Below, one piece after another: positions 11,874 through 37,052 of a stretch of DNA of 64,000 bases. Every line of letters begins with the position of its first letter. The first letter of the stretch is position 1. Origin of the DNA: Octopus vulgaris (Eukaryota); assembly GCA_951406725.2 (NCBI GenBank), contig OX597823.1, positions 51,336,001 to 51,400,000 of the forward strand. Reading direction: 5' to 3'. The notes beneath the pieces were generated by a model. That model saw nothing but the letters and a program-made list of their open reading frames with translations. It had not been told where the DNA came from and searched no databases. The translations under genes were made by a program, and so were the position numbers.

Positions 11874-12075
11874 CCGGAGTAAACACATAAATGTGAAACA
11901 AGGTGGAAAAAGAGTACTCAAATACCAGTGGTAGAGTAATATGCTTTATTTAAAGCAGCAGAAAATTCAACAAAACCTGTTACTCTGAATTTCGCAAAAA
12001 CTGTCCGATGAACGGCAAGGCGAAACTCAGAGTAACAGGTTTTGTTGAACTTTCTGCTGCTTAAATAAAGTATAT
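11874..12075. mobile_element. Penelope-like terminal fragment with inverted segment and hammerhead motif, embedded in (TA)n
   Basis: ~55-bp inverted arms at 11939-11995 and 12020-12075; hammerhead-like motif at 12001-12038; (TA)n on both sides. Confidence 0.65.
12001..12038 (+). ncRNA. Type I hammerhead ribozyme-like motif (variant core)
   Basis: ctgt-CCGATGA-acggcaaggc-GAAA-ctcagag-TA-acag: stem I ctgt/acag, stem III act/agt, GUA triplet; U4 replaced by C and stem II weak. Confidence 0.6.
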
Positions 12076-12235
12076 ATATATATATATATATATATATACA
12101 TACATACATACATACATACATACATACACACACACACACACACACACACACTCACATATATATATATATATATATTTATATTTATATATGTATAGACATG
12201 GTGTGGTGAATATATTGAGATACTAAAGAGCAAAT

Positions 12236-12523
12236 TTATTCAATAAAATCGCCATTAGCTTCAACCACAGTCTCCAGACGACTTGGGAATCTCCTGTAGC
12301 TCTTCTGGACAGGCCTCTTGTTTAAGTTGGTGAATGTTGCCATAGTACTTGCCTACAGTTCATCTTTGGTGATACAAAAAGTTTTGTTGCTCTCTTGCGC
12401 AACTGCACCCCACACATAATAATCAAGTGGCTTGCAGTGTTGAGAGTTAGGTGACCAGATGTTAGGGGTGATGTGGTCGTAGAAACTATCTGACAGCCAT
12501 GACTGTGTTTTCTTGCTTGTGTC
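12236..12523 (-). pseudogene. Tc1/mariner superfamily (maT/DD37D-like) transposase C-terminal remnant
   Basis: Manual translation: TSKKTQSWLSDSFYDHITPNIWSPNSQHCKPLDYYVWGAV...KDEL*...RRFPSRLETVVEANGDFIE* (cf. WPPNSPDLNPLDYYVWG). Confidence 0.85.
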
Positions 12524-12644
12524 GGCAGAATTTCAACTTACAACATAAGGAGCAGAAACAAGTGTCGCAATGCATGTTTTTGACGTTTTAGCGAGTCTAT
12601 CGATCTAATCCTACATACATCATATATACAAATGCATACATATG

Positions 12645-12948
12645 TTTGTTCCTTCTCGAGCCATGTCTGGCTCATAAGGGCCGGTTTCCCGGTTTCTTGG
12701 CGTATAGATTCTCTACCTGGACGGGACGCCGGTCCGTCGCAGGTGAGCAGCAAGATGCAGGAGGAAAGAGTTAGAGAAAGTTGTGGCGAAAGAGTCAGCA
12801 GAAGTTCACCATTACCTTCTGCCAGAGCAGCGTGGAGCTTAGGTGTTTCGCTCATAAACACACACACATCACTCGGTCTGAGATTCGAACACGCGATCCC
12901 CCGACCGCGAGTCCGCTGCTCTAATCAGTAGGCCATGTACCTGCACAC
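12645..12948 (-). mobile_element. tRNA-derived SINE, family D
   Basis: Minus-strand head catggcctactgattagagcagcggactcgcggtcgg...gttcgaatc (A/B-box-like); tail cctgcgacggaccggcgtcccgtccag...gaaaccggcccttatgagcc. Confidence 0.75.
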
Positions 12949-12949
12949 T

Positions 12950-13200
12950 AAATGCGCCCTTTTAAATCCTAGCGAGGCTCATGAGCCCGTTTTCCCAGCT
13001 TCAATGGCATACCTGCTCCCCAGCTGGACGGGACGCTGGTCCATCGCAGCGATACTCATTTTTTGCCAGCTGAGTGGACTAGAGCAACGTGAAATGAAGT
13101 GTTTTGTTCAAGAACACAACGCGTCGTCAGGTCCAGGAATCGAAACCACAATCTTATGATCATGATGCTGACACCCTAACCACTAAGCCACGCGCCGCCA
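12950..13200 (-). mobile_element. tRNA-derived CORE-like SINE (family C head with family D-type tail)
   Basis: Head ggcgcgtggcttagtggttagggtg...tttcgattcc; CORE-like gtgttcttgaacaaaacacttcatttcacgttgctctagtccactcagctg; tail ctgcgatggaccagcgtcccgtccag. Confidence 0.8.
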
Positions 13201-33685: not shown

Positions 33686-33769
33686 CTATCCAAACGAGCA
33701 AGTAATTGACTTTATCTGTACTAGTGTATGGAAGAAATACACAATAGTGTTAATATTAGTATATGGCAA

Positions 33770-34200
33770 GGAGGCGAGCTGGCACGATTGTTACGACGCC
33801 GGGTAAAATGCATAGTGGCATTTCGTCCGTCTTTATGTTCCGGGTTCAAATGCCGCTGAAGACTTTACCTTTCATTCTTTCGAGATCGATATAATACGTA
33901 TCACTTGAGAATTGGAGTCGATGTAATTGATACACCCCTTCTCTGAAATTGCTGGCCTTGTGTCGAAATTTGAAACTAGTATAAGTAAATCGCTAAGGCA
34001 GCGAGCTGGTAGAATCTTTAGCATGCGGGGGAAAATGCTTTGTGGCATTCTTTTCTGATTTCGAATTCCGCCTGGTCTACTTTGCCTTTCATCCTTTCGG
34101 GGTCAATGAAATTAGTAAAAACTGAGTACTGGAGTCGATGTAATCGACTTACCCACTCACCTGAAATTGCTGACCTTGTGCCAAAATTTGAAACCAATAT
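33770..34200 (+). mobile_element. Two tandem SINE family A copies
   Basis: Two gcgagctgg heads, each ending gaaattgctg(g/a)ccttgtg...aaatttgaaac. Confidence 0.85.
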
Positions 34201-34925
34201 TAGTATATAGCAATAGTATCACAATTTGTTCTGTCTAAGTCTACTGGTTAACGATGAACTATTTTCAATTTTAACGCGGACATCAAATATGTTCCTTTCA
34301 CTCAAAATACGAAGTTTTCCACATTTCTGTAATGTTACCTGTAAATAAGTGTAATTATTTATATCATTAAAAACATTTATGGAAAATTCTTTACTTTGGA
34401 GAGCTGAATTAGAAAACGTTCAGTGAATGTTGAGTGAGGAAAGTGAGGATTCCTTCAGGCTCCCTAACTTAAACAAAGCCAATGAAATGTATGAAAATGC
34501 CAAGTTGTGTTCTATGATCCCTGAGACTGGATTCACAGTATTAATGACTTGTATTACAAAGAATCCGAGTATGGTTCCAAACTACCTGATAACTGACTCA
34601 CTGAAAAATTGAATTCCGCGGGAGTAAAAGCACCATAATATTTTTGTATTTTTTGTTTAATCCATATTAAATATATTCATCAGTTTGATTTTCTTGTCGA
34701 ATTATCCTCTTTAATGGCACGTTGTATCTATATAGGTCCAGATGTGGTTGTGTGATGAAAAGTTTGTTTTGCAACTACATGGTTTCGGGTTGCCTTCCAC
34801 TATTGCCTCGGACCAACCACAGCCTTGAAAGGATTTGGTAAACGAAAGCTGAAAGAACCATCATGGTCCAATGACTGAAAAGAAAAAGGTGTGTGTGTGT
34901 GCATGCGTGTATGTATATATATATA

Positions 34926-36235
34926 TATTGGATCATCCCATAATTAATGGGGATTTTTTCATACTTCTTTTATCTTTTAAAATTAAGATAAACAAAGTTA
35001 TTTTTTAATCGAAAATATACTCCACTTGATTTTCTACAATGCTCTTCCATCTATCTGGTAGACTTTCAAGGCCCCTCTTCCAAAATTCACTTGTCCGTGA
35101 TGAAAAATACTCCTCCAGTACTGCTCTAACCTCATCTACAGAATTCATATTTTTTCCATCTAAATGATTTTGAAGATTGCAGAATAAATGATAATCAAAT
35201 AGGGCAATGCTTGGCGAAAATGGTTGGTGGGGTATCGTTTCCCATTCAAACTCCTCCAGCATTAGGAATGTCATCCTCGCTGTATATGACCGAGCATTAT
35301 CCTGATGTAAGAACACATTTCGTCTTGAAACCAAAGATGTTCGCTTTTCTTCTAGTGCTGACTTAAGCTGCTCAAGCTGCTCACAGTAGATTTCCTCTGT
35401 TAGCGTTTGGTTTAGGTTTAAGAGTTCAAAGTGGACTACCTCTTTCAGAGCCCACCAAACAGATAACAACACCTTACATAGTTGAAGACCTTCTTTAGCT
35501 TGGGGTGGCGGTGTTTCTCGTTTCCCTACCCACTGTCTTCGGCGCTTAAAAAATTTTTTATAGAGAACCCATTTCTCATCACTAGTCACTATTCTATCAA
35601 AAAATAAAAAGGGTCATTCATGAGACGTCACAGCAAAGAATAACACATATTCACTCTCTGCGCGCGATTAGACTCGGAAAGTTTGTGAGGAATTCATTGA
35701 CCCGATTCGCAGATTTCTCCGATGGCATCTAAGTGTCGATGAATGGCTGAATGACAAAATCCAAGTTTCTCTGCTAGTTCCTCAACAGTTACGATGGGAT
35801 TTTGTTTCACCGGGGTTGGCAGGACGTCCTCGTCTAAATTTACAGATCTTCCAGAACGAGGTGCGTATTCTAGGCTGTGGTTTCCAGCTCGAAATTTTGG
35901 GAACCACAGTTGACACTGGCTTACGCTTATTGTGAGATCCCTATATAATGCATTAATATTCCTCGCACTTTCTGTTGCGTTGTTGTCTGTATTGAACTCA
36001 TAAAGCAAAATATGCCGACTATAATCCTTTGTCACTTCCATTATAGGTTTGTAAAAATAGCTGTTAAAATCGAAATGCACTCTTCGAAACTAAGAATAAA
36101 TACAATGTAAAAAAATTAGTACCTGCATTTATAGTAAGTTTATACAGGTAGTTTATCCCGTCCCCACCAATTTTTAGTTCATGCATTTGAAAAAGCCGCA
36201 TTATTTGTATATATATATATATATCTAAGCCAATA
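34926..36235 (-). mobile_element. Full-length decayed mariner (~1.31 kb)
   Basis: TIR tattggatcatcccataattaatgggattttttc; opposite TIR gaaaaagccgcattatttg...ccaata disrupted by (TA)n; transposase inside. Confidence 0.9.
35005..36041 (-). pseudogene. Mariner DD34D transposase, frameshifted (cecropia/Hsmar1-like)
   Basis: MEVTKDYSRHILLYEF helix-turn-helix region, PRSGRS, TSDEKWVLY, LHQDNARSY, PFSPSIALFDYHLF, LPDRWKSIVENQVEY; frame breaks between ~35590 and ~35700. Confidence 0.93.
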
Positions 36236-37022
36236 CAAGGAAAACATAATATTATATTATGGTATATTCTTATAATAATATAATATAATATATAAGCAAT
36301 AAATATCAAATACAAATTACATATAATTCTTTCGCTTGTTGCCCATACTAAGATCATAATAATTCATGTTTGTGGATAAGAATCTCTTCAGAGTAATATT
36401 TGATATATGAAGAGTTGCAGATCCTAAACTAGATTGAATTGACTAGAGAGGATAAACTATTTTAAATACATCATTTTGCTATTTACCCATAGACAAATAT
36501 TGTATTGTTATTATAATAATATGTATTTTTAATAGTATGAAAGAATAAAAGAGATATTTCTCATTTCCCGATTTTTAAAAAAATATTGTTCCTGGTATTT
36601 AGAAAAACTAATGCGCTAAAATGATTAAAATTCTTAATAGTATACAAATATATTTTATGACCAGTGTATTAGTTTACTTTTCATATTTTTTATCTTTGAT
36701 TTTGTTTATGATTATCGACGCTCACGCTTGTAAGCATAAATTCAGTCGTTTGAGGGTGGGGGTGAATCTGTAACTCCTCATATATCAAACATTACACTGA
36801 AGAGAATCTTTCCCACAAACATGGATTTTTATAATTTTATGATGTGTAACAATCGAAAGAATTGCATGTAATTTGTATTTAATGTTTATTTATTATACTA
36901 TATCATAAGAATATACTATAGTATTATGTTAATATATATATATATAATGCATATACACAATATATATATATATATATATATATGTATTTATATATATATA
37001 TAATATATATATATTATCTTAT

Positions 37023-37052
37023 TTGCTGAAGAAATCTGAAACCTAGGTATAA
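37023..37052 (+). ncRNA. Minimal type I hammerhead ribozyme-like motif next to (TA)n
   Basis: ttg-CTGAAGA-aatct-GAAA-cctagg-TA-taa; palindromic ACCTAGGT stem III, GUA triplet; stems I and II very short. Confidence 0.5.

What the first reader, a model, noticed from the sequence alone, without database searches (positions are those of the whole stretch)
12001..37052. Four unrelated short elements each carry a minimal hammerhead ribozyme motif, mostly at (TA)n tracts
Seen: a CUGANGA-stem II-GAAA-stem III-UH architecture closed by stem I at 12001-12038 (+, CCGAUGA variant), 24015-24049 (-), 30515-30560 (+) and 37023-37052 (+). Their flanks do not resemble one another. Three have self-complementary stem III (ACGT, ACGT, ACCTAGGT) and three lie in or beside (TA)n. 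No Penelope RT or GIY-YIG ORF is visible. Established: minimal type I hammerheads with palindromic stem III occur in Penelope-like element terminal repeats and retrozymes and are thought to cleave as dimers. Inference: this genome hosts several distinct ribozyme-bearing non-autonomous or truncated families that favour TA microsatellites and could cleave host pre-mRNA in trans-dimers.
Basis: partly seen in the sequence, partly recalled or inferred. Interest (0 to 1): 0.75.

Follow-up and report, generated by a model that had tools for sequence, protein, structure and literature searches.

The report
Hammerhead-tipped Penelope retroelement ends
The four motifs are short broken-off pieces of high-copy jumping genes that carry a hammerhead RNA motif (three come from protein-coding Penelope-like elements, one from a non-coding repeat that likely rides on them); only one looks intact, one was misread, and self-cutting is predicted, not shown.

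Summary
All four sites are copies of high-copy repeats in this 2.8-Gb genome (1,410-2,969 first-look candidates each). Three are 5'-truncated 3' ends of protein-coding Penelope-like elements (PLEs): 12005 a Hydra-type PLE with intact 727-aa ORFs elsewhere; 24045 a Neptune-type PLE; 30520 a Penelope/Poseidon-type PLE. Only 30520 is intact; 24045 has a weakened stem II; 12005 has U4C, a broken stem II and is predicted to be locked in a long hairpin. Three families end at (TA)n; the 30520 family does not. I found no support for host pre-mRNA cleavage. A fifth, U3-A8-type end lies at 3250. The only unusual feature: the 30520 family has a tRNA-like A/B-box head right behind its ORF, and most short copies begin there, suggesting a SINE-like Pol III sub-element. 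The scan noted this system and that head before, on other DNA of this genome. Verdict: real, mostly known biology.

The parts
11873..11994 (-). Family F1 (Hydra-type PLE): inverted, 5'-truncated arm ending in the long 'tail' at the left (TA)n; starts at the GAAA box, so it lacks the 5' core
   Evidence: same 3' end as the pLTRs of the intact element in L219
11995..12070 (+). Family F1 sense arm with hammerhead 12001-12038 (core CCGAUGA = U4C variant, stem II broken in this copy, predicted cut after 12034), short end abutting (TA)n
   Evidence: folding both arms together gives one long hairpin (-76.4 kcal/mol) that takes up stem III, the cut site and the 3' strand of stem I
23917..24089 (-). 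Family F2: 3' end of a Neptune-type PLE; hammerhead 24049-24015 (stem II cut to 2 bp against 3-4 bp in 20 of the 25 scored copies; predicted cut after 24019); 3' end joins (TA)n 23864-23917
   Evidence: lies in sense 0.5-1.3 kb behind a GIY-YIG domain in 10 of 30 endonuclease loci
30479..30614 (+). Family F3: 3' end of a Penelope/Poseidon-type PLE; intact hammerhead 30515-30560 (5-bp stem I, unpaired A, 6-bp stem II, ACGU helix III; predicted cut after 30555). This copy lacks the tRNA-like head and (AAT)n that longer copies carry
37013..37217 (+). Family F4: positions about 181-388 of a 466-nt non-coding tandem unit; holds only the 3' half of the hammerhead (3' arm of stem II, GAAA at 37038, ACCUAGGU helix III, orphan stem I strand 37050-37056).
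3194..3344 (+).
   Evidence: (96% identical to the 3' end behind the GIY-YIG domain in L133)

Best explanation
The four sites are truncated copies of four high-copy hammerhead-bearing repeats: three are the 3' ends of protein-coding Penelope-like retrotransposons and one is a non-coding 466-nt tandem unit likely copied by PLE enzymes. Shown: family membership, linkage to RT/GIY-YIG ORFs for F1-F3, pLTR tandems, head-to-head inverted arms, optional tails, and TA junctions for F1, F2 and F4. Inferred from known PLE biology: the element's endonuclease nicks AT-rich DNA, and reverse transcription starts at the RNA's 3' end and usually stops early. The hammerhead sits 50-350 nt from that end, so it is the part that survives in thousands of stubs. 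In the master elements the ribozyme would cut tandem precursor RNA as a dimer through the palindromic helix III, probably weakly and with protein help. The window copies are passively decaying stubs, and three of the four are predicted to be inactive.
For: Copy number; 3,199 exact matches to an F1 pattern and 1,081 to an F3 pattern, 0 for the reversed controls. F1: L219 holds two 3.36-kb units with a hammerhead in each pLTR and an intact 727-aa ORF; L220 has one as well. That ORF carries RWK, DKT and CxCX5C and lacks CCHH, as described for Hydra. Its stems I and III match those listed for coral Hydra-2_Amil apart from the loop base. F2 follows a Neptune-type GIY-YIG domain in 10 of 30 loci. 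F3's head follows the ORF in 15 of 20 ORF loci and its hammerhead (fuzzy match) in 14 of 20. F4: in 9 of 12 distinct loci that reach the unit's 5' end, 60 nt or more of a preceding unit's 3' end is joined to it head-to-tail, and no ORF lies between. Different families build the same fold from different stem sequences. The F2 core is less variable than its flanks (2/261 against 113/2217 non-CpG differences, p=0.0005).
Against: No cleavage assay. Pfam found no family in the 727-aa ORF; it is identified by motifs, by a weak BLASTP match to a Neptune-type protein (E 6e-7) and by eye against Hydra proteins in a supplement; no tree was built. Within F4 there is no covariation above shuffles (1 pair changed on both sides; 399 of 500 shuffles as high). 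For F3 the core is not significantly better kept than the flank (p=0.15). No autonomous partner was found for F4, and no intact ORF for F2 or F3 themselves (F3's longest open frame among 150 hits was 569 aa). Loci are best hits or first-listed matches, not random samples.
Confidence: 0.9

Rival explanations
1. One reading: the genomic copies are transcribed inside host pre-mRNAs and cleave them as trans-dimers.
For: F3 sequence is abundant in RNA-seq (4,706-6,462 reads per 11.5-12.9 million in three runs). Helix III is self-complementary in all families (duplex -1.7 to -11.4 kcal/mol). F2 and F3 share ACGU and could in principle pair across families.
Against: Three of four window copies are damaged or sequestered. 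The ACGU duplex is only -1.7 kcal/mol. One core-bearing copy per family in the window. No host gene was identified in the window (not exhaustively tested). No pile-up of read ends at the predicted cut sites (weak, see Tried and rejected). Published minimal PLE hammerheads are inactive as monomers and weak as dimers (PMC4209133, Results); the Anolis one needs protein (PMC11167929).
Confidence: 0.07
2. The motifs are chance matches in AT-rich repeat DNA.
For: The first descriptor was not significant.
Against: 4 against 0.52 and 2 against 0.04 in shuffles; core boxes intact in 25, 25 and 22 of 30 copies of F1, F2 and F3; position in pLTRs of ORF-bearing elements; match to a published Hydra hammerhead.
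Confidence: 0.01
3. All four are free-standing non-autonomous retrozymes or SINEs that replicate through circular RNAs.
For: F4 is a non-coding tandem unit. Most F3 copies are about 270-nt tRNA-headed units without ORF.
Against: F1, F2 and F3 run upstream into RT/GIY-YIG coding sequence in the same orientation. No circular RNA was shown.
Confidence: 0.05

Closest known systems
Minimal type I hammerheads in pLTRs of metazoan PLEs (Cervera & De la Pena 2014, PMC4209133; abstract, Results and Discussion read)
   Same: Type I fold, palindromic loop-less helix III, unpaired base before stem II and G10.1-C11.1 (F2, F3), U3-A8 variant (site 3250), thousands of solitary copies from truncated PLEs, opposite-strand pairs.
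   Different: F4 has a 7-bp stem I and a 13-bp interrupted stem II starting with G-U; an F1 subfamily carries U4C. U4C is a known weak natural variant (PMC3088659, passages).
Hydra-clade PLEs, including Hydra-1_Obim and Hydra-2_Amil (Craig et al. 2021, PMC8557442; passages, section 11 and supplement rows seen)
   Same: F1: RWK, DKT, CxCX5C, no CCHH, (TA)n target; stems I and III as in Hydra-2_Amil apart from the loop base.
   Different: Not the Hydra-1_Obim family (different hammerhead and protein sequence by eye); the unit is 3.36 kb rather than under 3 kb; clear pLTR tandems.
Neptune and Penelope/Poseidon PLEs (PMC8557442 passages; Poseidon of Anolis, PMC11167929, passages and second part of main text)
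   Same: F2 lies behind a CX2-5CxxC linker plus GIY-YIG; F3 lies behind RT plus GIY-YIG without that linker; optional tails and inverted arms.
   Different: F3 carries a tRNA-like A/B-box head and (AAT)n directly behind the ORF; 'tRNA' and 'polymerase III' do not occur in PMC11167929.
Animal non-LTR retrozymes (PMC7229834, passages; Li, Clavereau & Pollet 2026, 10.64898/2026.07.22.740005, part 1 of 5 read)
   Same: F4: non-coding unit with a type I hammerhead in head-to-tail arrangement, proposed PLE dependence.
   Different: Dispersed partial tandems with inverted arms at (TA)n rather than long arrays; 466 nt is above the 170-400 nt circles described; circles not shown.
Schistosoma Sm-alpha / Sj-alpha SINE-like hammerhead repeats (via review PMC6765202, passages)
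   Same: Pol III-type promoter followed by a hammerhead, as in short F3 copies.
   Different: In F3 the promoter-like head is embedded in the 3' end of a protein-coding PLE, and copies are single or inverted, not tandem satellites.

Membership tests
EN+ Penelope-like element (F1, F2, F3) | ORF with RT and C-terminal GIY-YIG upstream of the hammerhead, same strand | tested here: met
   F1 intact 727 aa; F2 endonuclease domain in 10 of 30 loci; F3 RT and endonuclease fragments
EN+ Penelope-like element (F1, F2, F3) | pLTR partial tandems, inverted 5'-truncated arm, optional tail | tested here: met
   F1 all three; F3 inverted arms and two 3' ends; F2 only 3 direct or inverted partner copies seen
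EN+ Penelope-like element (F4) | Own RT/GIY-YIG ORF | tested here: not met
   466-nt unit joined to the previous unit's end; no PLE ORF upstream in sense in the 37 loci searched
Hydra clade (F1) | RWK, DKT, CxCX5C linker, no CCHH | tested here: met
   ORF read against the description
Hydra clade (F1) | (TA)n insertion | tested here: met
   29 of 30 loci
Hydra clade (F1) | Generally under 3 kb | tested here: not met
   Repeat unit 3.36 kb; the paper says 'generally'
Hydra clade (F1) | Placement in the RT phylogeny | not tested
   No reference proteins were available as tool sequences
Minimal PLE hammerhead | CUGANGA, GAAA and UH boxes with stems I and II | tested here: met
   Families F1-F4; in the window fully met only at 30520, weakly at 24045, not at 12005 or 37026
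Minimal PLE hammerhead | Palindromic helix III | tested here: met
   All four families plus the 3250 family
Minimal PLE hammerhead | Compensatory changes within a family | tested here: inconclusive
   F4: 93% of cells paired against 22-44% when slid, but covariation not above shuffles
Minimal PLE hammerhead | Self-cleavage as dimer | not testable with these tools
   Needs an in vitro assay
Non-LTR retrozyme (F4) | Non-coding tandem units each with a type I hammerhead | tested here: inconclusive
   Partial tandems in 9 of 12 loci; a near-complete dimer only in L310
Non-LTR retrozyme (F4) | Circular RNA intermediate | not tested
tRNA-derived SINE (short F3 copies) | A and B boxes at tRNA spacing | tested here: met
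   Read from copies (box consensus recalled); ARAGORN finds no intact tRNA in 21 loci
tRNA-derived SINE (short F3 copies) | 5' ends at the Pol III start | tested here: met
   21 of 30 head-anchored copies start at -10..+5, 2 of 30 run into the ORF; 36 of 69 and 4 of 69 over all arms
tRNA-derived SINE (short F3 copies) | Independent of a coding element, with its own master lineage | tested here: inconclusive
   The head is part of the coding element's 3' end; subfamily structure not resolved
tRNA-derived SINE (short F3 copies) | Pol III transcription | not testable with these tools
   RNA-seq runs read both strands equally

The most novel reading that the evidence does not exclude
The 30520 family is a Penelope/Poseidon-type retrotransposon whose terminal repeat starts with a captured tRNA promoter. 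Pol III transcripts of that repeat (head, (AAT)n, hammerhead, tail; about 270 nt) were copied by the element's own enzyme into thousands of SINE-like copies: a SINE born inside a PLE, and possibly a Pol III-driven PLE. 21 of 30 head-anchored copies start at the tRNA +1, including 15 of 21 that have no fold-back at the local palindrome; by contrast 21 of 30 F1 copies run on upstream.
Probability: 0.5. Interest if true: 0.6.

Novelty: new member of a known kind. Interest (0 to 1): 0.3.

Why it matters
As given, the finding adds four more families to a well-described class: hammerheads at PLE ends, here in an octopus-like genome (organism inferred from resemblance, not determined). It shows that motif calls on single truncated copies can be wrong (site 37026). 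The genome holds young intact Hydra- and Neptune-type PLEs, useful for testing what PLE hammerheads do, which is still open. If the tRNA-headed F3 sub-element is confirmed as Pol III-transcribed, it would show a route by which a SINE arises from within a Penelope element.

Tried and rejected
Rfam scan: only microsatellite-driven miRNA noise among the 150 of 170 rows shown. A first descriptor without the unpaired base missed stem II. A Pfam accession recalled for PLE RTs is not in the library; PF01541 was used instead. The 781-aa Neptune-type family is not the parent of F1-F4: no match in its own 3' ends; F1 and F2 copies near it are co-insertions in TA tracts. My first idea that F3 is a free-standing SINE was dropped. 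Absence of TTTT in the F3 unit is not informative (54% of shuffles also lack it). RNA: no holder is on record as RNA. Raw reads X21-X23, labelled organism B and mostly 90-99% alike, cover F3 and the F1 end on both strands equally, with no pile-up of ends at the predicted cut sites; the libraries look unstranded and fragmented, so this is not evidence either way. Lunse et al. 2017 is not held and is known here only through the review. Literature searches for a tRNA-headed or Pol III PLE or a PLE-dependent SINE found no describing paper in the listings; subscription papers, Repbase and bioRxiv supplements were not visible, so absence from print is not established. Look-ups of earlier notes by sequence and by nearby place returned nothing.
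Full report
Observation. The four strings are present as described. A loose descriptor recovers exactly these four in the window against 0.52 in 200 shuffles (none reach 4), and a strict PLE-type descriptor recovers 30520 and 24045 against 0.04. An earlier descriptor without the unpaired base before stem II gave 3, which 8 of 100 shuffles reached. 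Rfam showed no hammerhead among the 150 rows displayed. The four elements do not match one another by BLAST, and the window has no PLE coding sequence. The window is G000:C10:51336001-51400000 of a 2.8-Gb, 227-contig genome; 'octopus-like' is my inference from resemblance and from earlier notes, not a determination.

All four are high-copy repeats. DNA searches gave 2,704 (30520, F3), 1,410 (12005, F1), 2,969 (24045, F2) and 1,990 (37026, F4) first-look candidates, of which 40 each were scored and 30 fetched. Exact patterns gave 3,199 matches for F1 and 1,081 for the F3 head, with 0 for reversed controls. These are lower bounds, and the fetched loci are best hits or first-listed matches.

F1 (11873-12070). 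The window holds two arms joined at their truncated 5' ends between two (TA)n tracts: an inverted arm ending in a long tail and a sense arm ending short. Of 30 pattern-anchored loci, 21 continue upstream. L219 contains 3.36-kb units with a hammerhead in each terminal repeat, an intact 727-aa ORF and a head-to-head inverted partner; L220 also has a 727-aa ORF. The ORF has RWK, DKT and CxCX5C and no CCHH, the features given for the Hydra clade. Pfam found nothing in it, and BLASTP to a Neptune-type protein is weak (E 6e-7). Stems I and III match the hammerhead tabulated for coral Hydra-2_Amil apart from the loop base; the family differs from Hydra-1_Obim. The ORF-bearing unit printed reads CTGATGA; 12 of 30 pattern loci, and the window copy, read CCGA. 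U4C is a known weak natural variant (PMC3088659). In the window, stem II is broken, and the two arms fold into one -76.4 kcal/mol hairpin that hides the cut site.

F2 (24089-23917, minus). Longer copies extend through a CA-rich stretch to the end of a GIY-YIG domain. A search with that peptide returned Neptune-type endonuclease loci, and F2 follows in sense in 10 of 30 of them, one being the source locus. Core boxes are intact in 25 of 30 copies; stem II has 3-4 pairs in 20 of those 25 but only 2 in the window. All 30 loci end at a TA-type tract.

F3 (30479-30614). This is the only intact hammerhead in the window. Longer copies read: tRNA-like head with A and B boxes, (AAT)n, hammerhead, one of two 3' ends. 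ARAGORN finds no tRNA in 21 loci. I first took this for a free SINE. In 20 ORF-anchored loci the head follows in 15 and the hammerhead in 14. No intact ORF appeared among 150 hits. The 5' ends pile up at the tRNA start: 21 of 30 head-anchored copies begin at -10..+5 and only 2 run into the ORF; 15 of 21 copies without a fold-back at the local palindrome do the same (over all arms 36 of 69 and 4 of 69). This favours a defined RNA start (Pol III) over fold-back, but a reverse-transcriptase stop is not excluded. F3 does not target TA (1 of 30).

F4 (37013-37217). In 23 of 30 loci the real core lies upstream, closed by a 7-bp stem I, with a 5+8-bp stem II and an ACCUAGGU helix III. That structure pairs in 93% of cells against 22-44% when slid, though covariation does not exceed shuffles. 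The window copy starts at about position 181 of the unit, in the stem II loop, so it lacks the core. Its CTGAAGA is a variant of the stem's 3' arm seen in 7 of 30 copies. The unit is 466 nt and non-coding. In 9 of 12 distinct loci reaching its 5' end it follows 60 nt or more of a preceding unit head-to-tail, often with inverted arms; L310 is a near-complete dimer. TA-type tracts follow in 23 of 30 loci. No coding partner was found.

A fifth end. At 3194-3344 lies the 3' end of a Neptune-type family with a U3-A8 core, 96% identical to L133; its cleavage-site base is G here. Related elements have many intact 781-aa ORFs.

Mechanism. Shown: family structure, ORF linkage, tandem and inverted arrangement, TA junctions. 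From the literature: PLE hammerheads sit in pLTRs, are inactive as monomers and weak as dimers (PMC4209133). The Anolis Poseidon enzyme nicks AT-rich DNA and starts reverse transcription at internal sites that define the tail; its hammerhead needs the protein and is not required for insertion in vitro (PMC11167929). Inferred: early termination leaves hammerhead-bearing stubs, and selection on the motif acts on master elements (F2 core 2/261 against flank 113/2217, p=0.0005, with the caveat of low-complexity flanks; F3 not significant, p=0.15). Cleavage of host pre-mRNA is unsupported: three of four copies are damaged, each family has one core-bearing copy in the window, and the ACGU duplex is -1.7 kcal/mol. 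RNA-seq reads cover both strands equally with no end pile-up at the cut sites, which is uninformative given the library type.

Novelty. The system is known: new members of PLE hammerhead families and one retrozyme-like unit. The scan has reported the same kind of system, and the tRNA-headed family, on other DNA of this genome; those notes are not independent support. The tRNA-headed sub-element did not turn up in six literature searches, but subscription papers, Repbase and bioRxiv supplements were not visible, and Pol III-promoter hammerhead repeats are known in schistosomes (PMC6765202). Overall interest 0.3; novel case 0.5 probable, 0.6 if true.

Noticed in passing
   Followed up: yes
L151-L155 (e.g. 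L151:406-4090): Young Neptune-type PLE family with many intact 781-aa RT/GIY-YIG ORFs, an upstream ORF and a repeat-rich 3' region; 3' ends at (TA)n with a U3-A8 hammerhead
   Followed up: partly
L156 and L124, downstream of the ORF: Another Neptune-type family whose hammerhead reads CCGAAGA in one copy and CTGAAGA in another, with a GTAC helix III
   Followed up: no
L125, L137, L158, L200, L210: PLE ends of different families sit next to each other in the same (TA)n tract, so nearness to an ORF alone does not show parentage
   Followed up: partly
L190 and L193, upstream of F2: A further TA-ending family with an F2-like fold but a CTGTGGA core (L193), i.e. an altered core position
   Followed up: no
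L129, both strands near positions 208 and 454: Inverted pair of a long-stem-II hammerhead of another family
   Followed up: no
L004, L014, L264, L266, L274, L276: LINEs with a restriction-like endonuclease (type recalled from motifs) are inserted in or beside the (AAT)n tract of F3 copies
   Followed up: no
L017:1563: About 7% of F3 RNA reads lack 3 nt at helix III, a variant that would remove the cleavage site
   Followed up: no
window 1492-3267 (-), 35005-36089 (-), 50479-50877 (-): 591-aa LINE RT frame, broken mariner-type transposase and a LINE RT fragment (named from motifs, not scanned)
   Followed up: no
window 44605-44976 / 45677-46048 and 59841-60140 / 60698-60997: 372-nt inverted repeat (97%) around 700 nt, and a 99% identical direct duplication with 857-nt spacing
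   Followed up: no
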